From a virus: a DNA stretch of 64,000 nucleotides. The DNA is taken from IMG/VR virus record IMGVR_UViG_3300005077_000003, positions 64,001-128,000 of that record; one strand, 5' to 3'. The position numbers were made by a program, and so were the translations under genes. Of this stretch, positions 11,196 to 30,600 are shown piece by piece (position 1 is the stretch's first letter; each line of letters begins with the position of its first letter). The notes under the pieces were generated by a model. That model made no database searches. It saw only the letters and a program-made list of their open reading frames with translations, and was not told the origin of the DNA.

Positions 11196-11211
11196 ATGCT
11201 ATAACTATTTT

Positions 11212-11243
11212 GGGTAGACCCAGAAATGGGTCTACCCTTTAAT
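11212..11243 (+). terminator. Intrinsic terminator-like hairpin after the tube gene
   Basis: Perfect 11-bp stem GGGTAGACCCA / TGGGTCTACCC with a GAAA tetraloop, followed by TTTAATTAT (short U-tract). Confidence 0.7.
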
Positions 11244-11247
11244 TATA

Positions 11248-12141: not shown

Positions 12142-12883
12142 GCATTATCCAACACCAATAACTACTACCTTTTACATAGGGCAGTATTTAATTGATGATG
12201 TATATAGGGTTGATTTTACAAGAAAAGTAACTCATCAACCAATATGGGGGTATGCCAGTAAACAATATGATTTTATTGCCAAAGGTAGAGAAATAGTAAC
12301 TGGCAATATTATAATTAACTTTAGGTATCCAGGCTATCTGACTAATGCCATTAAAGTAGCAACTCAAGATTCTGATACAAATAAAGTTCTAGTTAAATCT
12401 GGAATTAAAAAGGATTCAAAACAATCACTTGGAAACCTACTTGATGATATACACAATGTTAATAGTATTTCATCGGTAATGGAAAAAATAAGCAATATAT
12501 TGCTTGGCACTAAAATAAATAATTCGCAACAAGAGAATACCGCATCTCTTAGTAATATAAATGAAATAAACGAAACATATAATGAACTAAAAAAATCTTT
12601 AGTTGAGCGACATACTAAACAGTTTTCAAAACTCGATACTGGCGTTAAGCACTTAGAATCTCCATTATCAATAGAACTTCCTTTATTTGATCTTGAAATC
12701 CAGTATGGTTTCCAAGGAGTATCTGGTGGGTGGAGAAGAATATTTAAAGATATAACACTGGTTGGAGAGTCGCAAGTAATACAAGCAGGGGGAGATGGCA
12801 GCGGTATGGGTAGTAGTGCACAATGTTTATTAGAAGCATACCCATTTTTTGCATCTAGTACAATAGTTAAAAGGACAGTATAA
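12128..12883 (+). CDS. Second tube-fold paralog
   Basis: FYIGQYLIDDVYRVDFTRKVTHQPIWGYASKQYDFIAKGREIVTGNIIINF matches the tube-fold pattern (YI-G...P-x2-G...G-x-R-x2-G-x3-F). Confidence 0.6.
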   Translation: MSRARHYPTPITTTFYIGQYLIDDVYRVDFTRKVTHQPIWGYASKQYDFIAKGREIVTGNIIINFRYPGYLTNAIKVATQDSDTNKVLVKSGIKKDSKQSLGNLLDDIHNVNSISSVMEKISNILLGTKINNSQQENTASLSNINEINETYNELKKSLVERHTKQFSKLDTGVKHLESPLSIELPLFDLEIQYGFQGVSGGWRRIFKDITLVGESQVIQAGGDGSGMGSSAQCLLEAYPFFASSTIVKRTV

Positions 12884-13239
12884 TGAATATGTTACCAGAA
12901 GACGTAAAGGAAGCCGCCGAAAAAGCAAAGGCCGATGGCTTCCGTCCATATTGGATTACACTTAATGGCGTTAGTTTTGTATATAGACCAATTAAGCGTA
13001 AAGAATGGAGAGAATTAACTAGAGCTCAAAATAAAGAGCTTGTTGCTTCTCAAGAAGATCCTCTAGAATTGGCTGAAATAAAGGCTAAATATGTTGAGGA
13101 AATAGTAAAAATGTGTGTTCTATGGAGCGAGCTACCTATTGATGACAATCTAGGTGCAGGCTATGTAGAAACACTTTCCGACGCAATCTTAATAGATTCA
13201 GGTTTTGGTTCTCCTGATGTTCCTTCAGTTGAAGTATAA
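12883..13239 (+). CDS. Tail assembly chaperone
   Basis: 118-aa acidic protein with FVYRPIKRKEW...EEIVKMCVLW...LSDAILIDSGF, placed between tube genes and the tape-measure region. Confidence 0.65.
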   Translation: MNMLPEDVKEAAEKAKADGFRPYWITLNGVSFVYRPIKRKEWRELTRAQNKELVASQEDPLELAEIKAKYVEEIVKMCVLWSELPIDDNLGAGYVETLSDAILIDSGFGSPDVPSVEV

Positions 13240-13874
13240 TGGAAAACAATGTACTGGATAAGTACACAGAGCTAATACTTCAAGGTAACAAAGACATATT
13301 TATTACCGAACTCGGGGGCTTGTCATTTATTTGCAAGCCCCTTACTTATTATCAGTATAAGCTTTGTTTAGATATAGAAAAGAATGTGGGCGCACCAGAT
13401 TCTAATGAAGCCATTCTAAAATTATCAATTATATTTCCAGAAAGGAATGAGTTAGAAAATTGGATAGATAGCACAAACGCCTGTTTCCCAGATATATTAG
13501 CAGATAAAATCCTAGCTAAATCTAGTTTTAAAAGCCAAGAAGATATATATAGCTTATATCTTTCATCCAGGGATGATGTTGAAAAAGACTTTATTGGCTT
13601 AGCACAAATATATATTTGCACCGCATTTAAGGCCATATCGCCAGCAGATATAGATAAAATGCCAATGAAAGATATTATGTGCCTACTAGTAAAGGCAGAA
13701 GAAGCTTTAGGTAAAAAGATTAATATAGAAGAATTATTTAATATAGAATCAGAAGGTAAACAAAAAATACCTATTCCTCCAGGAATGGAGTCAACTGCTT
13801 TTGATCCTTTCTCTAAAGAGTATATGTTAGATCCAGATAATGCGAGCCCAATACCACCAGAGGCATTCAGATAA
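13239..13874 (+). CDS. Tail assembly chaperone, second paralog
   Basis: FICKPLTYYQY...EAILKLSII...LADKILAKSSF parallels the previous ORF; TAATG-coupled. Confidence 0.55.
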   Translation: MENNVLDKYTELILQGNKDIFITELGGLSFICKPLTYYQYKLCLDIEKNVGAPDSNEAILKLSIIFPERNELENWIDSTNACFPDILADKILAKSSFKSQEDIYSLYLSSRDDVEKDFIGLAQIYICTAFKAISPADIDKMPMKDIMCLLVKAEEALGKKINIEELFNIESEGKQKIPIPPGMESTAFDPFSKEYMLDPDNASPIPPEAFR

Positions 13875-15322
13875 TGGCCAGGCAAGGAGAAGAGCCTAGG
13901 TATACTGGTCCACGCGAGGGTGAACTAGAAGCCTATAATGCAGAAGTAGATCAGGCCAATGAGCGTGATGCTAGTTGGCTAGCCAAAATAGCTATAATAG
14001 GTTTTGGTACACACGTACTAGGAAGGGCAGTTGGGCGAAATATAATTGCTGATATTATCCACACTGGTGGATTAATGTCCAAGTGGGCTGGCGGCCTCTA
14101 TAAGAGAAAAGGCAAATCTTTATTAAGACCAGAAGTATACAATAGAGTTGCTAGGGCTATTGATGATAATAGTGGCGTTTCTGGTGAGGTAATAAAAAGA
14201 ACCTGGGAAGGTTCAAACCTAGAAGAAATAGAGGGCGTAAGAAGGCTAATAGAGATGTCCTCTATTATAGGGGATCCTAAAAATATTACTTCCCGCCCTA
14301 GACTAATAGAGTTTTTTAAAGAAGAGCTCGCCAGAGATGCGCGGGTTCTTCAAAGACCAACACCTTTACAAAAAGAAATGTCGCATAGCCTAGATAGGCT
14401 AACCTTTGGTGACATTCTAGAAAATGAATCATATTTCTTTAGACCAAAAGAAATAGCAAAGTCATACCAAATAGAATCTATTAATCTTGCAATAGATCAA
14501 GGGCTTATAACAAAAGAAACAGTAGTAGGACCAAAACTATTTAAGCGCCTCGATAAACAAGGCAAGTTTGCATCACTAATAGATTTAAGACTTACTGATC
14601 CAAGATATGCACTTGAAAGTGCAGCTAAAATAGTTGGCGACGTAGCTGGTATATTTAGGGGTTTCGCGTCTTTATTTGGTAATGCCAGAACATTAGCTGA
14701 ACTACCAAGCGAGCATCCAGGTGGACCGCTAAGGGTATTTATAAAAGGACAAGCCGATTCTGCCGTAGCACCGCGCAGACCAACAATAAAAGGTCCATGG
14801 AATGATGCAGATGTATTAGCTTTTGATATAGAGACAAACAAAGCCAAAGCAATTAATGATGTAACAAAATTGCATATGGTTTCTATCGCCGCCAAAGAGA
14901 AGGGCGGAGCATGGAAGAGCTATACATTCTGGGATGATACTGCAGTAACCCACCCTGATGTTGTAAGATCTGGCAGTATACAAGACGCCTTAGATATACT
15001 AGAGGCTCATAAGGGTACATTATTTGGCCATAAGATTTTAGATTTTGACTTACCCGTAATTAAAAACTTACGCGGTGGGCTTACTATAGAAAGCGGCGCA
15101 GAAATAAGGGATACACTAGAAATGTCCCACGTTGCTTTTGGTACCTTTAAATCTGGAAAGCTACGCGAGATAGACAGACTAGCAGCTATAGGAAAAGAAC
15201 AAGAGTTCTCTGGACAAGTTCTTCATAAAATACCAAGCGAAATGAGGGGGAGACATTCCCTAGAAGCTTGGGGGCAAAGGCTTGGTAAAACTGCAAAACT
15301 GGAATATAAGGGCGACTGGTAA
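13874..15322 (+). CDS. N-terminal part of a giant tape-measure-region protein; contains ExoI and ExoII of a PolA/T7-type 3'-5' exonuclease
   Basis: LAFDIETN (14816-14839), GHKILDFDLPVI, IRDTLEMS, RHSLEAWGQRLG...EYKGDW. Ends at TAA 15320-15322, in frame with the next ORF. Confidence 0.75.
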   Translation: MARQGEEPRYTGPREGELEAYNAEVDQANERDASWLAKIAIIGFGTHVLGRAVGRNIIADIIHTGGLMSKWAGGLYKRKGKSLLRPEVYNRVARAIDDNSGVSGEVIKRTWEGSNLEEIEGVRRLIEMSSIIGDPKNITSRPRLIEFFKEELARDARVLQRPTPLQKEMSHSLDRLTFGDILENESYFFRPKEIAKSYQIESINLAIDQGLITKETVVGPKLFKRLDKQGKFASLIDLRLTDPRYALESAAKIVGDVAGIFRGFASLFGNARTLAELPSEHPGGPLRVFIKGQADSAVAPRRPTIKGPWNDADVLAFDIETNKAKAINDVTKLHMVSIAAKEKGGAWKSYTFWDDTAVTHPDVVRSGSIQDALDILEAHKGTLFGHKILDFDLPVIKNLRGGLTIESGAEIRDTLEMSHVAFGTFKSGKLREIDRLAAIGKEQEFSGQVLHKIPSEMRGRHSLEAWGQRLGKTAKLEYKGDW

Positions 15323-15337
15323 GCCCTAACGCCAGAT

Positions 15338-18300
15338 ATGCTTAAGTATGGATCGCATGATCCAGTAGTAACTGGTGACCTATTTGACTTTCTCAAAACA
15401 CTAGCTAAACCAACACATAAAGAAGTAAGCGCCACTGCTTCTATTGCTAAAAAAGCAGAAGACATTAAAGGAAGTGTCGGTAGAGTATATGAGTTTGTTG
15501 GTGATGAGCCTCCAAAACTAGTAGAATCTGGTGTTCGTCTTGGAGAAACCGGAGATATATTGTTCAAGCCTTCTGTTCTTAGAAAGCTCCATAGAGAAGG
15601 CAAATTAGAATCTATTTATACAAAACCCGGCCCTAATGCTACTTGGCTCCAAAAGTTACAACACAAGGCTGGTATAGGACCAGAATTCCAAGAGCGACCT
15701 GGTGGCTTTGTTCAAACACTATTAAGAGCAGTTAGGTCTATAAAGGCAATACATACTGGTGAAGCAAAGTTTGCTGGTAAAAGATATAAATCTAGTCCAA
15801 GCTCATTATTAAACGTTGTAGCTGGCAGCACAATACCACTAGAGGAAAGACTGCCTGAATATATTTCTCGTGGTAAATATTATAAACAAGCCGGTGAGCC
15901 AATAAAACCCGGGTTCTTTGATAGGATCAAAGCATACTTAGGGATATCTGAAGACGTAGATATAGTAAAAGCATCAGCTTTTGAGCCAGGTCGTATGCAA
16001 ATAGAAGCAGCAGATCTGCTAATCCCTCCAAAAACAGGTGGATTAAAACCACTTACTAAATCAGCATATTCTGCTACAGAAAAAACAATTGGCCCAACTG
16101 GAACGTTATCAGCCAGAAGAACTTCAGAATTTTATACTTCTAGTGCCAATCCTATAGATAAGCTATATGATTTTGCAAACTATTTAACAATAAGATTAAA
16201 TACATTAGCTAGCAGCCAAATGCTTGGCATAGGATACCGCGCATCAGGTAGCCTTACTGCTAATGCATTAAGATTGGCGGCAATCCCAGCAATATATATA
16301 GCTGGTACTGAAGCAATAAAATATGCTGATTATGAAATAGGCGAGCTAACAGGAGTCCGCCCATCATTCTTGGTATCAGATTTATATACTAAAGCTAGAG
16401 TACTACAACAGCAAGCAAGAGAAACCACTGGAATACGTAAAGGGGCAGAGACATTTGAGCTTACTTTCCCAGGCATAAGTGCCGGCCTAGCAGGAACAGG
16501 GCTAGCAGCCTTAGGCGCATTTGCTACCCTAAAAGGCACTGGATCATTTAAAGCCGCAGCTGCTGCTGGCGCCGCCATTTATTCATTGATAGGCGGCCCA
16601 GATGTAGCTCAAAAGCCAAAAGAATTAGAAGAGGAATATGAAGGCATACGCAAAGTGCCAGTAAGGTCATCTTCCTATTGGTTACTGGGATACGCTCCTT
16701 TTATTGGCGGCCACATAACCCACCATGAGCCAAGTTGGTATGTAAAACACAAATCGCAAGCGTATAAAACAAATATATATGGATCTGAAAAAGAATATTG
16801 GTCCAGCGGCACATTCTTACCAACGCCACAAAATTGGTTTGGTTTAAAAAATATAATTGATCCATATAAATTAGAAAGGGAAAACTACTACAGAAGGCCA
16901 TACCCTACTACTGCTGGCTGGGGAGAAGAGTTCCCAATTATTGGCCCATTAGTAGCAGATACAATAGGTGAGATATTTAAGCCTCGTGTAAGAATGCATG
17001 AGGAAGACAACCAACGTGTTGTAATAAGCAACTTACAACAAAGAGGTGCGCCAAAAGATATTGCATCATATCTCGGTATACCAGAATTGCCAGTATCAAT
17101 TGTAGAATATGGCAAACCTGAAGTATTAAGAGAAAGGCTTAAAAAATATGCAAATGTCGCTTTAGAGCCTGCTGGTATATGGAAGTTTGCTTTACAATAC
17201 TTTGGTATTAGTTTTGACGAAGGATATGAGGAAGCTACTGCTTCTAATATGGGATCCATATCAAGAAGATTCTATGAAGCAAACCTGGGCGGGGCATTCG
17301 GAGAAAGTGAATTCCTTAGGCGCTTCCTACTATCTGATTATGGTAGGGCTTCAAAGTTCAACCAACAATTAAATCCAATACCAAACTATCTTCCTAGATG
17401 GCTACCTGGATCATTAAGCAACTTCGAAGAAGACAGAGCTGCATTCTATGATTTTTCTCTTGGAGATGCATATACCAAGATACAAGGCGGGGAATATAAT
17501 TTACCTGGTGTTGGATATGAAAGCTATACTCCGCTACACGGTAAAGAAGCAGAAAGAGAAGAAGAGAAAATTAAATTTACTGCTAGAGTAGTTAAAGTAG
17601 TTGACGCTGATACTGTTGATATATCAATTAATGGCGGCAGACAGCGTATACGTCTAGCAGAAACTATGGCTCCAGAGAAGAATACGACAGAAGGTCAAAT
17701 TGCTATAGCAGCAATGAAATCTTTGTTGTCTCCTGGTGACAATATAACAGTAGAAACTACAAGAGACGAATTTGATTCTGGTGAATCTCAAGGCCCTTAC
17801 GGACGGACTATCGCGCGTATTTGGAAGAATGGCCTGTCTATTAATAGGGCAATGGTAGACTCTGGACACGCTACACAAATAGATTCAAGCTATGATGCAG
17901 TAGACAGATTCTTAATACTATCCAATATAGCACCATTCTCAAGAGCTTACAAAGATGCAGAACGCCAAGTTCGCCATATGCATCTTACAGAAGATTGGCA
18001 GGCCAGGGTTAATGCTGCCTATGAAGAAAGAGAGGCAAAAGTAGATAGGTTAGGGCTAAAAAAGTACCTACAAGAAGAAGCCGAAGCAGCTAAATTAAGT
18101 CCTCAACTAAGAGTCATAAGAAGTACATATCAATCTGTACATGAGAATCTACTTTCAGAAATACCAATAGTTGGATCAAAGTTTTTCCCAAAAAGAAATC
18201 CAGTTGATTTATATAGGAAGTTTGAAGTAGAAGGATCTGGCTTTGCAAACTGGGAAGAGCCATATGAAACCATATTACGCCCAGCTATATATGATATAAT

Positions 18301-19243
18301 TGGAAACAACCCAGTAATAGCTACAGCAAAAGCAGGTGGTTTAACTTGGCTAGCATCATCCTCTATGGGTAAATGGCTAAATCCAATAAGCGCCTTAGCA
18401 TATCCAGCAAATAGAGCTGCCACAATAGCAAGTGCCGCCGCAGTAGGTGGCGCGTTGTCAACTACAAGAATGGTTGCTACCGGCAAACTGGAAGGAGGAT
18501 TTACCCCGCCTCATATTGAAGAAGAGAGAGAAGTAGAAGAATATTTTGATCAACTAAAATATTTAAAGCATAGAAACTTAGAAGAAGCCGCTAATGATGA
18601 ACAGGCATACCATGTAGCAAACTATGCTAAAAAGCAATCGCGCAAAACATTGTTATATGGTCTACATGCACTAGAAACTAAAGGAAATATATTTGCTTAT
18701 AAAGGAGCACTTAAATCTAAAGAGAGGGCTTACTTTGAGGCCTTTGTAGAGGCTCCAGAAGAGGACAGGAGTGACATCCTATCAATGACCCCTGACCATA
18801 TGAAACGCGCGCTGGAAGCAATATGGGACCGCCAGCGTAAAGATAGACCGCCCGTAGAAGAACAGGCAGAACAATACTGGGATAAACATGCTATGCCAAA
18901 GCCGACGTGGATAGGTTGGCACCCAGATATTGATGATGATGAGGTAAGAATAAAAGCTATTGAGGGTGGCATAAATGGTATTTCTGATAATTTACAAAGA
19001 TTTGGTTATTTCCCCTCACAAAGAAGAGAAGTAAAAGCCAGATTTGGCTACCTTACTTCGCCAGTAGATGATATACATCCAGCAAGTAAAACATTTGAAT
19101 TACCATGGAAAGTTAAGAAGAGAGGAGGAAATATACTTAGCGAGTTCAATTTTGGTGCTGGCGCTGCAATTAATTTATCTAATATTAATATATCAGATGA
19201 TCGCAGTGAAGAGATAGCCTATTTTGCTAATTATATTAGATAA
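15338..19243 (+). CDS. C-terminal part of the giant tape-measure-like protein; starts with ExoIII and contains an inserted thermonuclease (SNase) domain
   Basis: In frame with 13874..15322 across one TAA. Begins (ALTPD)MLKYGSHDPVVT. Has Ala/Gly-rich hydrophobic stretches typical of tape-measure proteins and an SNase-like segment at about 17570-17880. Confidence 0.7.
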   Translation: MLKYGSHDPVVTGDLFDFLKTLAKPTHKEVSATASIAKKAEDIKGSVGRVYEFVGDEPPKLVESGVRLGETGDILFKPSVLRKLHREGKLESIYTKPGPNATWLQKLQHKAGIGPEFQERPGGFVQTLLRAVRSIKAIHTGEAKFAGKRYKSSPSSLLNVVAGSTIPLEERLPEYISRGKYYKQAGEPIKPGFFDRIKAYLGISEDVDIVKASAFEPGRMQIEAADLLIPPKTGGLKPLTKSAYSATEKTIGPTGTLSARRTSEFYTSSANPIDKLYDFANYLTIRLNTLASSQMLGIGYRASGSLTANALRLAAIPAIYIAGTEAIKYADYEIGELTGVRPSFLVSDLYTKARVLQQQARETTGIRKGAETFELTFPGISAGLAGTGLAALGAFATLKGTGSFKAAAAAGAAIYSLIGGPDVAQKPKELEEEYEGIRKVPVRSSSYWLLGYAPFIGGHITHHEPSWYVKHKSQAYKTNIYGSEKEYWSSGTFLPTPQNWFGLKNIIDPYKLERENYYRRPYPTTAGWGEEFPIIGPLVADTIGEIFKPRVRMHEEDNQRVVISNLQQRGAPKDIASYLGIPELPVSIVEYGKPEVLRERLKKYANVALEPAGIWKFALQYFGISFDEGYEEATASNMGSISRRFYEANLGGAFGESEFLRRFLLSDYGRASKFNQQLNPIPNYLPRWLPGSLSNFEEDRAAFYDFSLGDAYTKIQGGEYNLPGVGYESYTPLHGKEAEREEEKIKFTARVVKVVDADTVDISINGGRQRIRLAETMAPEKNTTEGQIAIAAMKSLLSPGDNITVETTRDEFDSGESQGPYGRTIARIWKNGLSINRAMVDSGHATQIDSSYDAVDRFLILSNIAPFSRAYKDAERQVRHMHLTEDWQARVNAAYEEREAKVDRLGLKKYLQEEAEAAKLSPQLRVIRSTYQSVHENLLSEIPIVGSKFFPKRNPVDLYRKFEVEGSGFANWEEPYETILRPAIYDIIGNNPVIATAKAGGLTWLASSSMGKWLNPISALAYPANRAATIASAAAVGGALSTTRMVATGKLEGGFTPPHIEEEREVEEYFDQLKYLKHRNLEEAANDEQAYHVANYAKKQSRKTLLYGLHALETKGNIFAYKGALKSKERAYFEAFVEAPEEDRSDILSMTPDHMKRALEAIWDRQRKDRPPVEEQAEQYWDKHAMPKPTWIGWHPDIDDDEVRIKAIEGGINGISDNLQRFGYFPSQRREVKARFGYLTSPVDDIHPASKTFELPWKVKKRGGNILSEFNFGAGAAINLSNINISDDRSEEIAYFANYIR

Positions 19244-22200
19244 TGAGTATAATAAATGAAATTATAGCATCCCTGATAGGTGATGAAGGGAAAGCTGCAA
19301 TAGGCTATGCTTCAGTAAGCACGAACAGGGTTAGACCTGCTCTAGACAAAGTAGGCATAGAGGCATCTCTTGGCAGTACCAGAGTAAAGTCTATTAGGGC
19401 AAAACAGTACTTGACTACTGATTTTGGTGAGTCTAGAACAGCGTCTACTTTAGTAAAACAGATTGGCATTAAAATGCCAGAGACGCTTACTTCTGTTATT
19501 GGGAAAACAACAGAAGAAAATATACCAAAAGCTCTGTTTGTATACGACGTAGAATTCTTTAAGAGAGCTGCTCTACAAACTGGCGCTAGGCCAAAAAGTG
19601 GTATGGCGCATCTTATAGATGTAAAGCAATTAGTTTTACAAACACTTCCAGAGCTTGCTCCCCAAAACACAAGGATTGAGAACGTATATAGGGCACTGGG
19701 GTTAAGGGGCATAAGCATCCCCGAAGGTAGGGAATTTTTTACAAATAAAGAACGCCTTCAAGCAGTAGAAGAAATAGTACAAGAGGTTTTTTCAAGATCT
19801 CCTGTAGAAGCAAAAAGATTTTTAGAAAGATCTGTCGGACGCCGCTTTGGGATAAATCCACTTGATAAGTATGCCTCATTAATTGATGAGCACCCTTTAC
19901 AAAAGCTTATTGGCCCGGAAACGCTTAACGTAATCCCAGTTAAGAATAAGCTAAAGTCAACTGTACATGTAAGCAACCTAAAATCTCTTAATGAGGGATT
20001 AGTACCGATATTAGAATCTAGGTTTGGGAAACCATTTGCGGAAACATTCAAAACCTTTTCGCATAGATTATTTGAAAGCGTTGACCGCCCAGGAGACGTA
20101 TCCTTCTTACTAACAGGCGGCAATAGACTATTTGTTGGTGTTACTGGTGTAGCCAGTACATACGAAGAGCTTCCTACCCAAATAGGCGGCCTTATAGGCT
20201 ATAAAGGCAAACTGGCTTCTGCGCGCAATATTCTTATAGAGTCAAAAGAAGAAGGCGTTAAAGGAGTAAAAACACTAACAGAAGCTTTCTTTGATGAATT
20301 CATTAAGGGCGTAGAAGAGTATGGAGAAGGTGGTAAGAACGTTACCGCCGCCTTAGAAAAAGGTAGAAAACAAGCTCTTGGTACAGAGCTTTTACCAGGC
20401 TTAAGATTCAAAGATATCAAGGGAGCAGTATCCACATATGGCGATATAAGTTTCCATCAAGCTGCATATATGCAGCACTCTCTTGTAGTTGGCAAAGAGT
20501 CTATGCCACTGCTAGATGAGGAGATTAGGGAAGCTTCACTTAAGGCACAAACATTCCAGGTTACTAAGGAAAGTACTACAGAAAGACTATTAAAAGCACA
20601 AGAAGCAGATCTCGCTAAGCTTGAAGCCAAAGGTATAGAACTCCAAAAAATAACTGGAAGTGATGTTACCATAGGCAAAGAAGGGTATGAAATGATAAGC
20701 AATAAAACAGGCTTATCATTAGCCCCATACTCTTCAATAAGATCATATTTCCCTCCTGGTGCACAAACAGAAAGAGATCTATCAAAGGGAGCCTATCAAC
20801 TAGGTGGTATCAAGGAGACGTGGGAGCCACTAAGACATAGAGTTTTAGAACTTACCAGAAGAAGGCTAGGTCTCACAAGTGCACATCCAGTAGGTACTAC
20901 AATAGGAGTAGTGTCCGAAGAGCAGACTATGCACCAAATGCTTAAGTCTGCTACTGGGAAAGCTGTGATCGAAAAGCCGCTACTTATGTGGCAAGGCTTA
21001 ACCACAGTAGTAGCTCCAGGAGAAAGCCTAAAAGTAAGGAGCATGCTTGGTGATCAAGGTGCTATACTTACTCCTATAGGAAGATTATCTACTCAGAAAA
21101 GAAGAGCACTAGTAGGTACTGAAGCCGCGCTCAATGCGAGCGATTTAATAGATACTATTCGCACCCTTGCTGGGGTAAGAAAAGGAGAAGAATTACCTAA
21201 ACAGTGGAGCAATATATTAGAAAAAGCTCTACAGCAACAAGAGGTCTCTATTAGAGATATTGGCGAAGGTATAAAAATAAAAGGGAAAAGCTCTCTTGTT
21301 CCAAGGGGTGCAGAAGTACTTACTGGCATCTCATATGACGACTGGAATAAAGTATATAAATTTAATTGGAAGACCAAAGCAGGTAGCACATTAACAGAAG
21401 CCTTATTACTAGACAATCAAAGAATAACAGCTAGCGTAGCTGGTGAGTCTTTTCTAGAAGAGCTATTCGGAACTAAAGCCCTAAGAAGTGATATAATCAC
21501 TTCTTCTGAAACCTTTGCAAAAGCAGGTAAAGCCAATATACTTTATACACATATGCTTGGTCTGCTTGGCACCGAAAAGCTACAAAAAGCTGGTGGTGTA
21601 GCAAGGTTCTTAAGGTTATATGAAAAGCATGGCGGTAAGGGATTAGAAAGGGTAGGCAGAAAACAGCAGATCATAGCGACTTCTGAATTTTCATTTAAAA
21701 ACTTCCTTAGCCAAGGTGCTATAGAAGGGCCTGCTGAAAAAGCTCTATCTGAAATGGGCGCATCAGTAGCGCAAATATATGGACTTGCTAAAAGCTCTAC
21801 AGAGTATGGGGAGAGTATATATGAACTTTTCCCGCAAGCTATTAAGCCTGGTCCTAAAGGACCAGAAGTAAAAGGCACTATTTTAGATGAAATAGGAGCA
21901 AAAACTCTTCCTACTTTAGAGGAGCTTAGAGAGGTATCTATGAAAAGCAATATGTTTGCTTTCATAACCAATATGGCAAATAGAACCTCTGAAGTAACTG
22001 ACTTCTTAAATTCTGAAAAGTCATTTAGAATGAGACTCTTTACTTTGCATCAAATGGGTCAATCTCTACCAACTATGTTTGGCCTAGAAAATCCAATGCA
22101 ACATCCTATATATAGGATGGAAATAGAACATCTACAAGAAAGTGTGCCGGGATTAATCTTGAATCCTAACGCCAAAGCAGCTATTGGGAAACCAGGAGGA

Positions 22201-24663
22201 GAAGCTTTCGTAAAACAATTACCAAGAGACATTAAAAATGTGGCATATGCACTCAAATTACCTGCTCTTGAAAAGCTGAAAGTACGTGGCGGCAAAAAAT
22301 ATTTTAAAGGTGTAGAGGTATTAACAAGACAAGAGGCCGCAGAAAGATTCATAAATGCTCCTGGCGGTATAAATGTACAAATGTTAGAAGGAGAAATGAG
22401 TGCCAAAGAGCTTTTTGAAAAAGAGCTCTTAAGAAAGGAAAGACCCGGGTTCTTCCTTCATACTGGAGATACGCCATGGTTTGCGCCAGAAAACCTCGAA
22501 GCAGAAGGCAAAGTTATGAAGGCCTTGCCAGTTAGGGGTACATATATACCGTCTGGTGAAGAACTAAGAAGAATGATAGGACAAGGGGAATTTCCAAGAG
22601 GATCTCTGCTGCATTCTATGGTATCATTGCTACAGCAACCTAATGCAGTATATGGAGCCAAAGAACCTAGCGCAGCAACTAGTGTTACAGTAAGAGGTGC
22701 ATTTGAAAATGTATGGAGGTGGTGGGCTAAAGCTGGAGCAAAAGGCGGCTATTTCCATGAAACTAAGCTTACTAGCAAAAAAATGCCTGGCTCTGCCAGG
22801 GTCAGGCTAACACAGAAAATAGCAAGTAATCGTTCAGAGTTTAATCTTATAAACTCTATGGAGGACATTTATTCCGTTAAAATACAGAAAGATACTCTCC
22901 ATAAAATGGCAAAAGAAATTGCAATAGCTGAGGGTGCAAAAACTCCAGAAGAATTACTTGCAATAGAGGAAGACCTTATTGAAAAAGCATCAAAAGGAAA
23001 ACTATATGGCGCAGTTACGCCAAGACCTCAACATGCTCCATCACATCAAAGGCTGGTAAAATTACAACTTATAAAAGAAGAGGTTACAAAGAAATTAATA
23101 TATGCTGATCAGGCTACTGCAGGAGTTAGTCCATACTTGGCACACGAACTAAGTAGAGACTTTGACAAGGACGCAATAGAAGTTGCAATAATAAGAGCTA
23201 GGCATCTCAAAGGAACTGTCGACCCAGAAGAACTTATAAAGAAGCAGTATGAGATGTCTGCATCACAAAGGAAGCAGTTTGATAGACTAAAAATAGAAGC
23301 AGATAAAGCTCTTTCCACTATAGAAGAAACATTGGAAGGGGCAACAAAAATAGAACAAAAACAGCTGCTAAATAAATATGCGCTAAAGTACTTTGCATTT
23401 GGTAGGACCCCGGCCCTATCACAAGTAGGCTCTTGGACAACCCTTGCATTTGCTCAAAAGATAGCTGATACGGCTACTAGTGAAAAACAAATTGCTGAAG
23501 AGCTAAATAGATTGTTTACAATTTCTGCTGGCGGTGAATATACAGAAGGAATCATACAAAGATATAGAGATATTTTAGGAGAAGGGTCCGAAGCTGGATT
23601 TGCTGGTAGAGTAGAGCGCGCCATAGAAATGTATAGAACTCCATTCCAAGGCGCTCTTACAAAAGCAGGAGAGATTAAAGACTTGCTTGATGATTTCCTA
23701 AATATTCCCGGCATTATTAAAGAAAGAGCAGAATCTTATGTAGTTGGTAAGGAAAAACCATTAATAGAAGAAACCATAAGTATGGTTGAAGAATATCTAA
23801 CTAAAGCCCTTGGAGCTACAGATGAGGAAGTTCTTGGAAATATAGCCACAGGATATGGAGAATACTACGTAAGAGAGGCAGCAAAATCAGCAACTAGTGG
23901 AGTCAAGAAAGCCATCACCAGATTAGCGGCAGAAGATCTTGGCACCGTTATAGGCGTTTCTGCTATTGCAATGCAGAGACATCACGGCGGGAGAGTAATA
24001 GGTAACCCAATGAGAGACGCTTTCCAAAAAGTAAAAGGATCAATGGCGTCTCTGTGGTCGTTTGTTACTGGTGAACCAGTTCAAAATATTAGAGAGTCCA
24101 TGGTAGAAATTGCTATGGAACATAGCGATAGATCTGCTGAAGAACTTGGCGAAAAAGCTGCCAAGGTCATGGAAAAGACCATAGACAAAGCAACCACTAA
24201 AGCCAGCAATATTCTGAAAGATTCAGAAGTACTAAATGATATCTCTGCGAAGATGAAAGGTAAGTGGGGATTAGTTGCTGGTATAGCTGCCGGGCTATTT
24301 GTTTTGCGAGAGTTAAGCGGAATAGTTTCTGATGTTGGCGGGTTTGCCGGCGGTAGTGCTCCTATCCCAAGACAGCCACTGCTGTCATTCCCAGAAGTGC
24401 ATAATTTATTCGATAGCCAACAACCTACTGCCAACGTAATGCCGGTTGAAGGATATAACTCTTCACTAAACTATCAAGGTGGTGGCTATCAAGATGTTGA
24501 AGATATCACAGATAATCTAGGTGAAATCACAAATAGAGGTGCCAACTTCTCTAATATAAATATCAGAGATAGCAGAAAATACTCTAGTAATTTTGCTATG
24601 TCACAAGCATACAAGAAACAGGGTGTTAGTGATTTTACACACCAATATCAATATAATCAGTAA
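19243..24663 (+). CDS. Giant virion-associated protein with two-barrel (double-psi beta-barrel) RNA polymerase-like motifs; candidate single-chain virion RNAP
   Basis: Ordered motifs: ERDLSKGAYQ, GLTTVVA...GDQGAIL, LLDNQRITAS...DIITSS...NILYTHMLG (beta-like), then GAKGGYFHETKLTSKKMPGSARVRL, TPRPQH, VSPYLAHELSRDFDKDAIEV (beta'-like; triad at 23158-23172), then FQGALTKAG. Confidence 0.6.
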   Translation: MSIINEIIASLIGDEGKAAIGYASVSTNRVRPALDKVGIEASLGSTRVKSIRAKQYLTTDFGESRTASTLVKQIGIKMPETLTSVIGKTTEENIPKALFVYDVEFFKRAALQTGARPKSGMAHLIDVKQLVLQTLPELAPQNTRIENVYRALGLRGISIPEGREFFTNKERLQAVEEIVQEVFSRSPVEAKRFLERSVGRRFGINPLDKYASLIDEHPLQKLIGPETLNVIPVKNKLKSTVHVSNLKSLNEGLVPILESRFGKPFAETFKTFSHRLFESVDRPGDVSFLLTGGNRLFVGVTGVASTYEELPTQIGGLIGYKGKLASARNILIESKEEGVKGVKTLTEAFFDEFIKGVEEYGEGGKNVTAALEKGRKQALGTELLPGLRFKDIKGAVSTYGDISFHQAAYMQHSLVVGKESMPLLDEEIREASLKAQTFQVTKESTTERLLKAQEADLAKLEAKGIELQKITGSDVTIGKEGYEMISNKTGLSLAPYSSIRSYFPPGAQTERDLSKGAYQLGGIKETWEPLRHRVLELTRRRLGLTSAHPVGTTIGVVSEEQTMHQMLKSATGKAVIEKPLLMWQGLTTVVAPGESLKVRSMLGDQGAILTPIGRLSTQKRRALVGTEAALNASDLIDTIRTLAGVRKGEELPKQWSNILEKALQQQEVSIRDIGEGIKIKGKSSLVPRGAEVLTGISYDDWNKVYKFNWKTKAGSTLTEALLLDNQRITASVAGESFLEELFGTKALRSDIITSSETFAKAGKANILYTHMLGLLGTEKLQKAGGVARFLRLYEKHGGKGLERVGRKQQIIATSEFSFKNFLSQGAIEGPAEKALSEMGASVAQIYGLAKSSTEYGESIYELFPQAIKPGPKGPEVKGTILDEIGAKTLPTLEELREVSMKSNMFAFITNMANRTSEVTDFLNSEKSFRMRLFTLHQMGQSLPTMFGLENPMQHPIYRMEIEHLQESVPGLILNPNAKAAIGKPGGEAFVKQLPRDIKNVAYALKLPALEKLKVRGGKKYFKGVEVLTRQEAAERFINAPGGINVQMLEGEMSAKELFEKELLRKERPGFFLHTGDTPWFAPENLEAEGKVMKALPVRGTYIPSGEELRRMIGQGEFPRGSLLHSMVSLLQQPNAVYGAKEPSAATSVTVRGAFENVWRWWAKAGAKGGYFHETKLTSKKMPGSARVRLTQKIASNRSEFNLINSMEDIYSVKIQKDTLHKMAKEIAIAEGAKTPEELLAIEEDLIEKASKGKLYGAVTPRPQHAPSHQRLVKLQLIKEEVTKKLIYADQATAGVSPYLAHELSRDFDKDAIEVAIIRARHLKGTVDPEELIKKQYEMSASQRKQFDRLKIEADKALSTIEETLEGATKIEQKQLLNKYALKYFAFGRTPALSQVGSWTTLAFAQKIADTATSEKQIAEELNRLFTISAGGEYTEGIIQRYRDILGEGSEAGFAGRVERAIEMYRTPFQGALTKAGEIKDLLDDFLNIPGIIKERAESYVVGKEKPLIEETISMVEEYLTKALGATDEEVLGNIATGYGEYYVREAAKSATSGVKKAITRLAAEDLGTVIGVSAIAMQRHHGGRVIGNPMRDAFQKVKGSMASLWSFVTGEPVQNIRESMVEIAMEHSDRSAEELGEKAAKVMEKTIDKATTKASNILKDSEVLNDISAKMKGKWGLVAGIAAGLFVLRELSGIVSDVGGFAGGSAPIPRQPLLSFPEVHNLFDSQQPTANVMPVEGYNSSLNYQGGGYQDVEDITDNLGEITNRGANFSNINIRDSRKYSSNFAMSQAYKKQGVSDFTHQYQYNQ

Positions 24664-27600
24664 TGACCTTAAATATATTTGATGAGACTGGTATTGAAAG
24701 ATCTGAGCAGACTCTTACCAGTGAGCAGCTAGCTGCAGCGCATGCTTCTACTAGGAACCTTGGTACTCCTATTAGAAGTACGTATAATACTCCATCTACT
24801 AATAGAAACAATCCAGTACTACCACCTATCAAACATACTGTTTACGGTAAAAATCCTGGTTCATTAGCTGCCAAGGATCAAACCTTTTTACAGATAGGAC
24901 CACATATATATGGTGGTGAAGTACAGGATATACAAATATTAGAGAATAAGGCAGTCGCACAATTTCTTGGTGTTAGAACATCAGCAGACTTTTTAGTTGA
25001 TAGCGGAGATGGTGATGCAAATATAGTTATTAGTTTACTATTTTCTGGAGTAGAACATATCTACTCTGGTTTAGTACCACTTATAGCTTTATTTAAAATA
25101 TCTCCGCTAACAAGTATAAAAAATGAGATGATAACATCATCTCTATCAAATGAATTTGTTGATAATATTGCTGATGGTGCGACAAAGCTTGCTCTAGATA
25201 AAGCTGACGAAATAATAAACAAAGCTTCTTTATATGAAGCATCAAGTATATTTATAGAGAATATTAGGCCATATTATGATGGCATACTCCCACAGGTTGT
25301 TAATTTAGAGTTTTTTAACAGTTTTAGAAATAATCAAGATTATAATAAACTACCCATGTGGGGTTACTATAACTGGGATACTTATGATGATTTTATTAAC
25401 TATAAAGCATTACCAAGATACAGCAACTCTGAAAAACTTAAATTAGCTTCTTCGGAAGAATATACTGAAAAACTTAAGAAGAAGCTAGTAAACAGAAAGC
25501 CCTCTAATTTCGTTCCGGTAGCTTTTACTGATATAACAATACAAACACATACTGAACTATCTGATACACTAATAGCCCGCTTAGTGTTTAAGAGGGTAGA
25601 TGTTTCTGCTTATAGCTCAACTAGTTTATTATATAGAAGTGCTAACAATACTCCTACAGATGATCCATTGAACGCCTATTGGCTACGTAGGATGCTAGAT
25701 CTTTATATAAACAAGTATTTAGATAAGAGCTATGTATTTGCTAATATGGGAGATGGGATAAGTGAAGAAGTATCACTAAGGTTTGCAGGCAATGATATAG
25801 TATTAAATATATTTAAGAAAGAATATAATCTAAATAATCTTGTGGTACAAGATACAGGATCAAATAGAGATTCTGTTGTAATGCAAATGCAAATTGCATA
25901 TGGTAATAAATTTTCTTTTGTAAGAAGGGCGGGTACAAGCTTCCCAACAGCACAGTTTATGGGCTATGGTAGTGGCACCTGTGCGATGGCTATAAAAACA
26001 AAGTCTGCTGAAAAGTTTAAGTCCATACATGCATACAAATCTGCCGCCGACTTCTTTATAAGAACACAAGATAGATTTGATAGATTTACTGGTTGGGAAA
26101 TAAGATCATCAATAGTTAAGATGTTTAATACATCTAGCTTACCCAATTCTTTACCAAATAAGCCAGCAGAATTTAAATCAGCATGGTATCCAATACAAGT
26201 ACAGTCATCTACTGATCCAGATTATCCTAATGTAAAAAATATATCTATAACATTTAAAGAAACAAACCCGGATTTCTATTCTGATTTTGGATTTTCAGTA
26301 TATAGAAAAGGATATCGCCTTGATAACCTAAGAGATTTCTTTAATGAAATATGGGATAGAGCAGTAAGGTATAGAAAAGGTGAGGGAGATTCTTTAGACA
26401 TTACTGCACATACAGCAGTATTTGGTACAGGAGATCCATATGAACTAGAATACAGTATGGTTAATGAAGATACTATAGCTGCTGTATTCTATAACGCATA
26501 TAGATTTAATACAAAAAGTCAATACTTCTCTCCAGAAGCTAATGATATTAGTGAAAAACTTTTTTCAAGACTAATGTACAGTAAAAAGTTTTCTGGATTT
26601 GAAGGATCATCTGTTACACTACCAGAGCATTTAAATAATGAACTTGGAGAAATCTTATCTCCTTTTGAATTAACTAGTGATTTTGAACTTAATAATGAAA
26701 CATTTGCAAATCTAGCTACTCTAGTAGCTGACTATTATTTTGATGTAGATGACACAGATGTATATAATGGTCTTGTAAATGCTATAAATAAAGTAGCATC
26801 TGGAGAATCTGGCAGAAGGAGTTTATATTCATATATATACCAACACATGGATATATTAATGAATAATGAATTTAGAGACTCTCTGTTTGCAGTAATCGCC
26901 AGAAGACCAAAGCCAGAAGTTAATGAGCATCAGTATAGCCTACACGGACTAAGTTCTGCGTTTTCGACACTGTCGCTTGTTTTGGAAGCAAAAGGTAAAG
27001 AACTATTAAGTGACGAATCCTACAGTGCACTATCTCAAACAAAAAGAGATGAAACAAAAATAATATTGGATTCTAATAATACGCAATCTAGAACAGAAAC
27101 CGCAACAGCATATCCAGATTATTTTAGAGCCACTTATGGTGAGCTGTTTAATGTTGTAGATGGCAACCCATTATATTGGAAAAACTTTGCCCCTACATTT
27201 CAGGATATGGGCATAATAAATGCCGATCCAAAGTTCTTAGAAAAGTATGATAGTTTTACAGAGTCGTCTGTTAAAGATGCGCAAAATCAGACTATAGCTA
27301 CTATAGATAGTCCAGTACCACCAAGTATAATATTCTATCACGAAAGATTATTAGACAAAGAGTTTATGCATCAGGTAGATGAAGATGTGTCTAACTATCA
27401 TGACAAACTTTCTAAGATGCGCATGTATATATCTTTTGATATACAAAAAGTATTAAAAGATGAATATGGCAGATATCTTGGGGAGAATGAAAACTTTGAC
27501 CAGTCTAAAATAGACGGATTAGCTGACGTAATAGAAAAAGGATTACAAAAACAAAACTCTTCTAAGAGCAGACAAGACTATATCAAATCAGGCGGTTTAC

Positions 27601-30600
27601 TTGTAAATGATTTACTTGATCAATACAGTAAGCAAAGGGGGGTTGATAGAACCGAAGTAATAAAAAAAGATTCATCATATAGAGCTGAATTTGAAAAGCA
27701 TATTAGAGATATACTTGATGGTAAAATAGAAAATTACAGTGATTATGATTTTAACAAAATATTGACCCCATTCTTAATTGGTACTAATATAAATGCTCCA
27801 GTAGCAAAGTGGAAATCATATTCAAGCGTTATTGGCGAAGGTATATCCAGAGGAATACTTAAAGGTGCTGGAGCAAACGTAGACTTGTCATCGTTTTTAG
27901 ATAATACATTAGTAACAACTGAAAATGGTGGTGTTACTCTTTCATGTGCAAATAGAGATGAAGAAAGAGTATCTATGTTAAAAATTATGCAGCGAGTCGC
28001 TGATAATTCATACTCTATGATAAGAGCATTCCCAACTATGAGATTATATCTTATAGAATTTCTTGGGCCTAGAATAATAGTACAAGATAACTTTTGGGGA
28101 TATAATGCTATTATATCTATGGACATAACTCTTGATAAAAATGATGCAGATCTAGCTGTAATAAGAATAGCCGACCCCTTCCACATATTACAAGGTTCCG
28201 CATTTGGTTCTGAATGGGCTGGTGGAGATACTGTGGTTGATCATATAGCTGTTCCAGTAACAAATGATGATCCATCACAAGGAAATATACTAGAAAGAAT
28301 AAAACTAAAAGTTGGTAGAGCAATTCAGATACGCGGCGGCTATTGCGTGGACGATAGGACCGAAATTCTCACACAAAGAGGATGGCTTACAAAGGACGAG
28401 TTAAAGGTTGGCGATATGTCTCTAACTCTCAACCACAATACCGGCTTATCTGAATGGCAGCCAGTAAAAGAGATCCACGTTTTTCAGCATGATGGCCCAA
28501 TGGTCTCTATAGATGGCAATAGGCATTCGTCTCTAACAACTTTAGGGCACAAATGGCCCGTCATCTATAAATCCAGAATGATAAATAGAAAGACCATCAA
28601 AAAGGTTAGAGAGTGGACTACTTCTGAGAAATTAAATGGCGCCCACATTCTTATCGGCGGGGCGAAGCATAATAGCGATATAAAAGAAAAAGTATATAGC
28701 GATGCCTTTGTTGAAATAGTAGCATGGTTTTGGACAGAGGGAAATATAAGAAACAATATAGGAATAAAAAGGGCTCCTATTATTAGGATATCTCAATCTC
28801 CTACTGCTAATCCAGATAATGTAAAAAGAATAAGTGCAGCTCTGGAAAATGAGTTTGGTAAACCAAGTGATAATATTAGTTCTGGTAATAGAATATCTCT
28901 GGGTGTCCCAAAATGGAAATCAAAAAAAAGACGTACTAGGAATGAGATTGTATTTAGTTTGAATAAAGCTGCTTCTGCTTTAATACTAAAGGTTGCACCA
29001 GGCAAGGTAGTGTCTAAAGAGTTCATACTTCAGCTTACCCAAGATCAGCTTGAGCTATTTGTCCAGATCTCTAACAAGGCTGATGGTCACAATAGTAAAT
29101 TAAATGATAAAATACTATTGTCACAAAAAAATCCTAAGTTTTTAGATGCGCTGGAGCTCGCAGCTATTCTCGCAGGATATAGAACTCATAGATACTTTGC
29201 AAAAGCAAGCTGTCAAGATCGTAGAGGTAACTGGTATCATCCTGATAGACTAAACATAAGCCCTAAAGTCAACATTTGGGTTGATACTTCTAGACCTGAA
29301 GTAGTAAACTACAAAGGCATTGTATGGTGCCCAACAACAAAAAATCATTCGTGGATGGCACGCAGAAATGGACACTGCTATTTTACCGGGAACAGTAGTG
29401 ATCCTGAAAACTTAGATATTATATTTACAGGTAGAGTAGCTGAAGTAGAATATGGAGATATCATAACTATAGCGGCACAAGGCTGGAAGTCAGAACTATT
29501 AGGTAGAACAGTAGAATTCCAGCTTAATAATAGGAATGAAAGTTCTGTTAAAGATTTAGTTGTAACGACTATTCAAAAAGCTTCTCCAGGAGGAATTGGA
29601 GAAGAATACTCTGGCAAAGTCACTGACGTTCTTACTTCAATAGGAGGTAATCTGCCAGCATCTCAAGCTATATTTAACTCACTACTAAACAGTAGCGGGA
29701 CTGCCGTAGGAGTCCCAGGTTCTGGCGGGACAGCTGGTATAGGTACTATTATAGGCAGCTGGAGATTCCTTAAAAATCTAGGGATGGGCCTAGATACTAG
29801 GCTAAGAAACATATGGATACCAGATAAAGACAGGACGCGACTTGACTATTTTGCAGATATATCTGATACAGGTTGGGAAGGCAAACACTGGGTATTCCCG
29901 CCTACGGATGCGTGGGAGATATTACAAAAAGCCACTAATTATACATGGAGATATATTTGTCAAGTAGTACCATATGAAGGAGAAGCCACATTATTTTTTG
30001 GGAGACCAGATCAACTCTATTACCATAGAGACGTAGATACTCGCCAATATCAAGCACAGGATAAAAGAAGAACTGCTTATAAAACAGAGTTGACAAAACT
30101 AATATCTGAAGTGATTGAACAATGGTATTCTACGTTAAACCCTGTTGTATCAAATAAATATTCTGATGGATATGAAAATCCAGGCGTAACGCTTCCCGCC
30201 CTTAATAGAAATTCGTATTATCCTTTATTTAAAGCTAGCTTCTATAAAAATTCAATATGGGATGTATTTAAATCATATAAAGACTTAGCAACCATATATA
30301 AAGTAGAAAATAGCTGGATTGCTCAAGCATCAAAGGACATATTAAATGTAGATGTTTATAATGATTTTGAAACTATTATAGAGTATTTTGGTGATCCAAT
30401 AATCATATCTAAGTTACTTCTTGTAGAGTTCTATGGGCTTAATTATGATTATGTAGAACAATATTTAGAACCTTATGTTTTATCATCTGTTATAGCTAGA
30501 AAGCTAACTGAAAATGACCTAATATCACTAAAGAATACTTTAGTTGAAGAAACTAATAATAACAAAGTTAGTGATGTTTTAGAAAAAATAAGTGCTTTAC

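What the first reader, a model, noticed from the sequence alone, without database searches (positions are those of the whole stretch)
13874..24663. Tape-measure-position proteins as a possible ejected nucleic-acid enzyme payload
Seen in sequence: the genes between the tail chaperones and the baseplate hub, where one mostly helical tape-measure gene is normally expected, carry four nucleic-acid enzyme folds. These are a PolA-type 3'-5' exonuclease, a thermonuclease, a degenerate DnaQ-like domain and RNAP barrels. If the TAA at 15320 is bridged, the two products are similar in size (1789 and 1806 aa) and end in a shared motif. Established: tape-measure proteins are ejected into the host ahead of DNA. 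Inference: this could be a system that co-delivers a transcription enzyme and nucleases at injection, for host DNA/RNA degradation, anti-defence or genome end processing.
Basis: inference. Interest (0 to 1): 0.82.

Follow-up and report, generated by a model that had tools for sequence, protein, structure and literature searches.

The report
Tail-module RNA polymerase and nuclease-bearing partner
In an uncultured 178-kb contractile-tailed phage, the genes where a tape-measure protein is expected encode a complete, very divergent single-chain RNA polymerase and a partner virion-type protein carrying two inserted nuclease domains, which extends the recently found "polymerase fused to the tail tape" idea to a new phage lineage.

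Summary

**ORF A and ORF B (13874-19243)**
- They are one ancestral gene. About 20 relatives encode a single chain of 1436-1585 aa.
- That gene is homologous to gp145 of Bacillus phage 0305phi8-36, whose record notes detection in virions by mass spectrometry.
- This phage added a T7/PolA-type DEDDy exonuclease module. It is unique here and is cut by an in-frame TAA nine codons before the ExoIII Tyr.
- It also carries a staphylococcal-nuclease module, which three relatives share.

**ORF C (19243-24663)**
- Sequence methods find nothing, but the two predicted models give a clear layout.
- The layout is a degenerate DnaQ fold (16-214), an RNAP beta/Rpb2-like module (259-928), a beta'/Rpb1-like module (972-1618) and a C-terminal tail.
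- An RDxDxD motif is present in all 28 family members whose sequence reaches that region.
- The tail resembles that of the 0305phi8-36 tape-measure protein, and a short motif in it is also found in ORF B.

**Reading**
- The most likely reading is a virion-delivered early RNA polymerase with a nuclease-bearing ejected companion.
- The closest known case is the tape-measure-fused virion RNAP gp96 of Thermus phage P23-45.
- Virion location, delivery and enzyme activity are inferred, not shown.
- The nucleases are accessory inserts, and the equal protein sizes are a coincidence.
- I rate it a new variant of a known kind.

The parts
12883..13874 (+). Two small ORFs (118 and 211 aa) in the tail-chaperone position
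   Evidence: The 118-aa ORF matches gp143 and gp144 of 0305phi8-36, annotated 'hypothetical tail chaperonin' (E 7e-6 and 1e-4). The 211-aa ORF is assigned by position only.
13874..15322 (+). ORF A, 482 aa: N-terminal part of the gp145-type protein plus most of the inserted exonuclease
   Evidence: Residues 13-293 align with the N-termini of single-chain homologs P0004, P0005, P0037 and others.
14753..15451 (+). Inserted T7/PolA-type DEDDy 3'-5' exonuclease module (AB residues about 294-526), spanning the TAA
   Evidence: PHROG 17 and 403; T7 DNA polymerase residues 113-147 match; ExoI at 14822, ExoII at 15035, ExoIII at 15347. The module is absent from all about 24 close homologs. A duplicated host segment of about 25-30 aa flanks it.
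15320..15322 (+). In-frame TAA between ExoII and ExoIII
   Evidence: TAA is the commonest stop codon in the window (24 of 33). No suppressor tRNA is found in the genome.
15338..19243 (+). ORF B, 1301 aa: remainder of the gp145-type protein
   Evidence: Five collinear BLASTP segments match 0305phi8-36 gp145, down to E 2e-21. Metagenomic homologs number 42.
17552..17893 (+). Inserted staphylococcal-nuclease (SNase) module
   Evidence: PF00565 scores 26.7 bits; thermonuclease E 8.5e-9. It sits cleanly between the host motifs GYE..LHG and YDAVD. P0037, P0038 and P0042 share it. Asp21, Arg35, Glu43, Tyr85 and Arg87 are kept; Asp40 is Met and Thr41 is Ala.
19181..19204 (+). C-terminal motif NINISDDR of ORF B
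19243..24663 (+). ORF C, 1806 aa: single-chain RNA polymerase in the tape-measure position
   Evidence: The family has 32 representatives, mostly 1700-1890 aa. Start and stop overlap the neighbouring genes as TAATG.
19288..19884 (+). Degenerate DnaQ/ExoI-like fold (ORF C residues 16-214)
   Evidence: VIA Z 12.3-13.5 against E. coli ExoI; Foldseek probability 1.0 for a DnaQ domain and RNase T. ExoI and ExoIII residues are not conserved in the family.
20017..22026 (+). RNAP second-largest-subunit (beta/Rpb2)-like module (residues 259-928)
   Evidence: The Foldseek list is led by Rpb2/beta chains, E down to 7e-5, with DnaQ-fold chains lower down. VIA Z about 12 with 440-485 residues aligned. K515, G603, R727 and F789 are invariant.
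22156..24096 (+). RNAP largest-subunit (beta'/Rpb1)-like module (residues 972-1618)
   Evidence: All listed Foldseek hits are beta'/Rpb1 chains or QDE-1; the best is the AR9 non-virion RNAP at E 5e-4. VIA Z about 9.
23158..23172 (+). Catalytic-type metal-binding motif DFDKD (residues 1306-1310)
   Evidence: R1305, D1306, D1308 and D1310 are invariant, as are P1262 and H1264 of an upstream PxPTHGxGH block.
24100..24660 (+). C-terminal tail: helices, a hydrophobic helix at residues 1677-1695, a Pro-rich linker and the motif NINIRDSR (24553-24576)
   Evidence: It aligns weakly but collinearly with the last 140 aa of the 0305phi8-36 tape-measure protein gp146.
24663..32504 (+). ORF D, 2613 aa: gene in the hub/lysin position (context)
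   Evidence: It matches phrog_20474, labelled endolysin, at E 3e-23. Its position is that of 0305phi8-36 gp147, which PMC2147016 describes as a T4 gp27-type hub. I did not compare ORF D with gp147 directly.

Best explanation
The region holds a conserved pair of giant late genes of a clade of uncultured myoviruses related to 0305phi8-36.

Gene 1 (ORF A plus ORF B) is a gp145-type virion protein. In this phage alone it gained a T7-like proofreading exonuclease module, now split by a TAA. Together with three relatives it also carries a staphylococcal-nuclease module.

Gene 2 (ORF C) is a complete RNA polymerase in one chain. It has an inactive DnaQ-fold domain, a beta-like module, a beta'-like module with the DxDxD metal site, and then a short tail that resembles the end of the lineage's tape-measure protein.

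Proposed mechanism (inferred):
1. Both proteins are made late, together with the tail proteins.
2. Both are loaded into the virion through the shared C-terminal motif, which would be recognised by the hub or by the tail chaperones.
3. Both are expelled at sheath contraction.
4. ORF C then transcribes the first phage genes.
5. A phage sigma factor later redirects the host polymerase.
6. The nuclease modules ride in as accessory weapons or processing enzymes.
For: Shown:
- Domain identities.
- The DxDxD motif is kept in all 28 members whose sequence reaches that region, at 18-33% overall identity, which argues for a working active site.
- A and B form a single chain in about 24 relatives. The pair AB-C, followed by the hub-position gene wherever the contig reaches that far, is adjacent in all 5 loci examined.
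- The genes are coupled to their neighbours through TAATG overlaps.
- ORF B is homologous to gp145, whose GenBank record notes detection in virions by mass spectrometry.
- The C-terminal motif is shared by both families and by gp145 and gp146.
- Pfam finds no other RNAP in the genome, but it does find a sigma-70 gene.

Precedent: the tape-measure-fused virion RNAP gp96 of P23-45 transcribes pre-early genes (PMC10770324).
Against: - There is no direct evidence that ORF C is in the virion. It has no cultured relative.
- A folded polymerase of about 180 kDa does not fit a tail-tube lumen, so it may instead travel in the capsid.
- Only about 190 residues of ORF C could act as a ruler.
- The hydrophobic helix is weak and poorly conserved.
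- The RNAP relationship rests on predicted models (pLDDT 72-75) with Z 9-12 and on one motif. Profile searches against PDB sequences find nothing.
- The exonuclease is interrupted by a stop, and the SNase lacks Asp40.
- The genome is 92% complete, so a second RNAP could be missing from the record.
Confidence: 0.6

Rival explanations
1. ORF C is an active phage RNA polymerase but is not packaged. It is merely encoded in the late tail operon and works inside the cell as a late or non-virion enzyme.
For: No proteomic data exist for this family. 0305phi8-36 encodes its YonO-like RNAP (orf99) outside the structural module, among non-structural genes. Nearly all of ORF C is globular.
Against: A polymerase first made with the tail proteins cannot start the infection that made it. 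ORF C carries the C-terminal module of the lineage's tape-measure protein and shares a motif with the virion protein gp145. It always sits between the gp145-type gene and the hub-position gene.
Confidence: 0.15
2. ORF C is a structural tail or ejection protein that only keeps an RNAP-derived fold and no longer polymerises RNA.
For: The N-terminal DnaQ fold of the same protein has clearly lost its catalytic residues. Sequence similarity to any RNAP is undetectable.
Against: R-D-x-D-x-D and the upstream PxPTHGxGH block are invariant across the whole family, and basic residues K515 and R727 in the beta-like part are invariant too. A purely structural role would not need this.
Confidence: 0.1
3. 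The nuclease modules are not a delivered payload. They are opportunistic or decaying domain insertions. The TAA marks a dying exonuclease or an assembly error, and the SNase is a nucleic-acid-binding remnant.
For: The exonuclease insert occurs in this genome only, is cut by a stop, and is flanked by a duplicated host segment. Most relatives do without either insert. Asp40 is replaced in all four SNase copies. Only one contig carries this sequence.
Against: All DEDDy residues on both sides of the stop are intact. The SNase keeps Asp21, Arg35, Glu43 and Arg87 across four proteins that are only 42-51% identical to ORF B overall. Translation downstream of the stop must still happen, because ORF B is the conserved core of the protein.
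Confidence: 0.35

Closest known systems
Thermus phage P23-45 gp96, tape-measure-fused virion RNA polymerase (PMC10770324)
   Same: A very divergent two-barrel RNAP with a DxDxD motif, encoded in the tape-measure gene position. It was recognised first by the motif alone and is proposed to enter with the DNA and transcribe pre-early genes, with the host RNAP used later.
   Different: P23-45 is a siphovirus. Its RNAP occupies about 1100 aa of a 5002-aa protein whose remainder is a real tape measure with a peptidase and membrane domains. Here the phage is a myovirus, the polymerase fills about 90% of an 1806-aa protein, and it has an extra DnaQ fold. The solved structures that come up best are subunits of multisubunit RNAPs. 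No gp96 chain appeared among the listed fold hits, and no sequence similarity was found.
Bacillus phage 0305phi8-36 gp145, gp146 and gp147 (NC_009760; PMC2147016)
   Same: The gene order is the same: sheath, tube, tube paralog, chaperones, two giant genes, hub. ORF B is a true homolog of gp145. The C-terminal tail of ORF C resembles that of gp146, the assigned tape-measure protein. Hardies et al. already described conserved structural domains fused to exchangeable domains in this module.
   Different: gp146 has no DxDxD motif and does not match the ORF C profile. 0305phi8-36 keeps a separate YonO-like RNAP (orf99) outside the structural module.
Virion RNAPs of jumbo phages (phiKZ, AR9), of crAss-like phages (gp66) and of N4
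   Same: They are late-made, packaged polymerases that start early transcription. The AR9 and phiKZ beta' chains are among the best Foldseek hits.
   Different: The phiKZ and AR9 enzymes are split into several subunits and, as I recall, are carried in the head. N4 has a T7-like fold. None of them is encoded between the tail chaperones and the hub.
Polyvalent proteins of phages and conjugative elements (PMC5512222)
   Same: They are large multidomain proteins that combine nucleases and other enzymes and are predicted to be injected with the DNA.
   Different: They are linked to portal, MuF or capsid packaging and have different domain sets. Here the scaffold is a tail-module protein with only one or two inserted modules.

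Membership tests
Two-barrel (double-psi beta-barrel) RNA polymerases | beta'-type barrel carrying an invariant DxDxD metal-binding loop | tested here: met
   The motif is present in all 28 family members whose sequence reaches that region. The model matches beta'/Rpb1 chains and QDE-1.
Two-barrel (double-psi beta-barrel) RNA polymerases | Second, beta-type barrel supplying conserved basic residues | tested here: inconclusive
   At fold level the match to Rpb2/beta is good (Z about 12, 440-485 residues aligned). K515 and R727 are invariant, but I could not map them onto the catalytic Lys and Arg positions.
Two-barrel (double-psi beta-barrel) RNA polymerases | Template-dependent RNA synthesis | not testable with these tools
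   This needs biochemistry.
Tail tape-measure protein | Gene lies between the tail assembly chaperones and the baseplate hub | tested here: met
   and syntenic loci.
Tail tape-measure protein | Mostly extended or helical chain whose length sets the tail length | tested here: not met
   For ORF C, residues 16-1618 are globular enzyme folds and only about 190 residues remain. The AB protein was not modelled.
P23-45 gp96-type TMP-fused virion RNAP | Homology to the gp96 polymerase | tested here: inconclusive
   No PDB sequence hit. gp96 is not among the listed fold hits, which does not exclude a relationship.
DEDDy 3'-5' exonuclease (PolA/T7 gp5 type) | ExoI DxE, ExoII D and ExoIII Yx3D in one domain | tested here: inconclusive
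   All motifs are present, and PHROG 17 and 403 match. ExoIII, however, lies beyond an in-frame TAA.
Staphylococcal nuclease (PF00565) | Pfam gathering score, plus the catalytic Arg35, Glu43 and Arg87 and the calcium ligands Asp21, Asp40 and Thr41 | tested here: inconclusive
   The score is above the cut-off. Asp21, Arg35, Glu43 and Arg87 are kept. Asp40 is Met and Thr41 is Ala, and Asp40 is missing in all four copies.
DnaQ-like DEDD exonuclease (ORF C N-terminus) | Fold plus the four acidic catalytic residues | tested here: not met
   The fold is present (Z 12.3-13.5). ExoI and ExoIII residues are absent across the family, so this is a degenerate domain.
0305phi8-36 gp145 family of virion proteins | Collinear sequence homology along the protein | tested here: met
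   Five collinear segments match, down to E 2e-21.

The most novel reading that the evidence does not exclude
A clade of contractile-tailed phages delivers through or with its tail a full beta-beta' single-chain RNA polymerase and a second giant protein that serves as a scaffold for exchangeable nuclease modules. Both would be addressed to the virion by one short C-terminal signal (hydrophobic-x-D-[S/D/E]-R). That signal would then be a general cargo-loading tag for tail-delivered enzymes.
Probability: 0.4. Interest if true: 0.8.

Novelty: new variant of a known kind. Interest (0 to 1): 0.68.

Why it matters
- Only one experimentally studied case of an RNA polymerase in the tape-measure gene turned up in my searches, P23-45. 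This family would show that the arrangement arose in a distant myovirus lineage with a different, beta-beta' fused architecture.
- Sequence methods do not see the family at all, so phage surveys of RNAPs will have missed it.
- It sharpens an open question: how does a large folded enzyme get loaded into and expelled from a tail?
- It offers a candidate loading signal.
- It provides a natural scaffold where enzyme modules (SNase, exonuclease, an intein) are inserted.

Tried and rejected
Searches that found nothing for ORF C:
- Pfam, PHROGs and phmmer against the PDB.
- A family profile against PDB sequences gave only noise.
- tblastn of ORF C and of two distant family members against 50,697 phage records gave no match.
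- The scan of viral contigs by peptide patterns gave no match.
- The ORF C profile against the whole 0305phi8-36 genome gave no match. A local hmmsearch gave only a weak C-terminal alignment.

Searches that found nothing for the AB core:
- A profile of the AB core against the PDB.
- The ESM Atlas returned only the SNase.

Ideas rejected or left unsupported:
- An hhalign comparison of the AB family with the C family showed no overall relationship, so the shared element is only a short motif.
- TAA recoding or suppression is rejected. TAA is the main stop codon, and the only tRNAs are Arg-tct, Leu-caa and Met-cat.
- A second RNAP in the genome was not found with PF05183, PF00623 or PF00940. The PF00940 control rang nowhere, so that answer is empty.
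- A strong, conserved transmembrane helix is not supported.
- My first guess of a crAss-like phage was dropped once the sheath and tube genes were seen.
Full report
**Context**

The window is bases 64001-128000 of a 177.6-kb IMG/VR viral contig that is estimated 92% complete. It is a myovirus. PHROGs identify a major head protein (3135-4547), a tail sheath (8981-10510), a tube protein and its paralog (10524-12141), and a baseplate wedge gene (34119-35273).

The only cultured relatives seen are distant. Among them are Bacillus phage 0305phi8-36, other Bacillus phages and a Moorella phage, with about 31-36% identity over part of the sheath.

The annotated 0305phi8-36 locus has the same gene order:
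- sheath gp139
- tube gp140 and gp141
- gp142
- 'tail chaperonins' gp143 and gp144
- gp145 (1930 aa, virion protein)
- gp146 (2537 aa, hypothetical tape-measure protein, found in virions by mass spectrometry)
- gp147 (annotated endolysin; PMC2147016 describes it as a hub homolog)

So two giant genes between the chaperones and the hub are normal for this lineage (PMC2147016).

**ORF A and ORF B are one gene**

BLASTP links ORF B to gp145 in five collinear segments, down to E 2e-21.

A search with the read-through product found P0004 (1449 aa) and P0005 (1476 aa). In each of them a single chain matches ORF A residues 13-293 and then continues directly into ORF B.

A wider search gave 42 homologs. 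About 24 close ones, of 1436-1585 aa, are all single chains. Two syntenic loci show one gene, of 1441 aa (L016) and 1577 aa (L017), followed by an ORF C homolog and a hub-position gene.

Compared with these relatives, the window's protein has two extra blocks.

**Block 1: the exonuclease (AB residues about 294-526)**

- It matches PHROG 17 and 403, which are DNA polymerase and its exonuclease subunit.
- It matches Pfam DNA_pol_A_exo1 weakly.
- It matches residues 113-147 of T7 DNA polymerase.
- ExoI (FDIET) and ExoII (ILDFD) precede the TAA at 15320. ExoIII (YGSHD) follows it, starting four residues into ORF B.
- No close homolog has this block.
- It is flanked by a duplicated host segment of about 25-30 aa.

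TAA is the usual stop codon here (24 of 33 genes), and the genome has no suppressor tRNA. The ATG at 15338 has no Shine-Dalgarno sequence, but many genes in this phage also lack one and rely on coupling to the preceding gene. I cannot tell whether the stop is an assembly error, a recent mutation tolerated through re-initiation, or a functional split. Only one contig carries this sequence.

**Block 2: the SNase (AB residues 1227-1340)**

- It passes the Pfam SNase threshold and matches thermonuclease at E 8.5e-9.
- It sits cleanly between two host motifs. P0037, P0038 and P0042 share it.
- Asp21, Arg35, Glu43, Tyr85 and Arg87 are kept.
- Asp40 is Met, Phe or Gln in all four copies.

At the same site, the 0305-like branch carries about 240 aa of other sequence. 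One relative has an intein nearby.

**ORF C is a single-chain RNA polymerase**

Sequence methods give nothing.

An exhaustive profile search found 32 representatives, most of them 1700-1890 aa. In their alignment R1305, D1306, D1308 and D1310 are invariant, as are P1262 and H1264. From my own knowledge of bacterial beta', the PxPTHGxGH...NRDxDKD pattern parallels the RAPTLHRLGIQAF...NADFDGD region.

Two AlphaFold2 models were made:
- residues 680-1680 (pLDDT 72, pTM 0.69)
- residues 1-1150 (pLDDT 75, pTM 0.73)

| Part of ORF C | Foldseek result | VIA result |
|---|---|---|
| Residues 972-1618 | All listed hits are beta'/Rpb1 chains or QDE-1; best is the AR9 non-virion RNAP at E 5e-4 | Z about 9, 250-440 residues aligned |
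| Residues 259-928 | List led by Rpb2/beta chains, E down to 7e-5 | Z about 12, 440-485 residues aligned |
| Residues 16-214 | DnaQ-fold enzymes: ExoI, a DnaQ domain, RNase T | E. coli ExoI: Z 12.3-13.5, rmsd about 3 A, 157-165 residues aligned |

The family lacks conserved ExoI and ExoIII residues in the N-terminal domain, so that domain is degenerate.

In the viral structure library the best hits are an unnamed protein (E 2e-8) and a 'minor tail protein' (E 2e-5). Phage RNAP beta' chains come next.

**The tail of ORF C and the shared motif**

After residue 1620, ORF C is helical, with one moderately hydrophobic helix. It ends in N-[IV]-x-D-S-R...SDFIHxY, which is conserved in the family.

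The AB family ends in [IL]-x-D-[DEN]-R. gp145 ends with NIAHDRR and gp146 with NISDDRS.

The last 140 aa of gp146 align collinearly, but weakly, with the ORF C profile. gp146 has no DxDxD motif.

Profile-profile comparison shows no wider relationship between the AB and C families. My rough estimate, not a tool result, is that such a motif would turn up by chance at about the 1% level.

**Interpretation**

The pair is translationally coupled to the tail genes and always lies next to the hub-position gene.

Three things make a delivered early polymerase the best reading:
- a polymerase made late, together with the tail proteins
- the ending of the lineage's tape-measure protein on that polymerase
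- the P23-45 precedent (PMC10770324)

The genome also encodes a sigma-70 factor, and no other RNAP was detected. This fits a hand-over to the host enzyme later in infection.

The nuclease blocks are accessory and specific to sub-lineages. Whether they act in the host is open.

Several things are not shown: virion location, the route of delivery (tail lumen or capsid), and any enzyme activity.

**Earlier notes of this scan**

Earlier first-stage notes on this genome made the same domain calls. I checked them independently here.

Noticed in passing
window 13874-13876, 19243-19245, 24663-24665 and many other gene starts: Most late genes start at a TAATG or ATAATG stop-start overlap and lack a Shine-Dalgarno sequence. 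This suggests widespread termination-reinitiation coupling.
   Followed up: partly
window 14690-14760 and 15400-15490: A host segment of about 25-30 aa (ASLFGNA...GGxxRVF) is duplicated on both sides of the exonuclease insert. It looks like the footprint of the insertion event.
   Followed up: partly
L002 (0305phi8-36) gp146, residue about 1223: The cultured phage's tape-measure protein contains a DIETTG string that looks like a DnaQ ExoI motif. Pfam does not detect a domain there.
   Followed up: no
G000:C1:24941-25111 (minus strand; outside the window): A sigma-70 region-2 match (35.5 bits, above the cut-off) lies in a 238-aa ORF, so the phage encodes its own sigma factor.
   Followed up: no
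G000:C1:160184-163840 and 172990-177393 (outside the window): The primase-helicase and the ribonucleotide reductase carry endonuclease and HNH hits that look like inteins. An AB homolog (P0052) also carries an intein.
   Followed up: no
window 28344-29393: An earlier first-stage note reports a LAGLIDADG intein inside ORF D, the hub-position gene. I did not check it.
   Followed up: no
window 15338-17550 and 17900-19180: The AB core is unusually well conserved for a tail-lumen protein (42% mean column identity, with many invariant Pro, Gly, Trp, Tyr, Arg, Asp and Glu). It has no detectable relative of known structure, so it may itself be an enzyme.
   Followed up: partly
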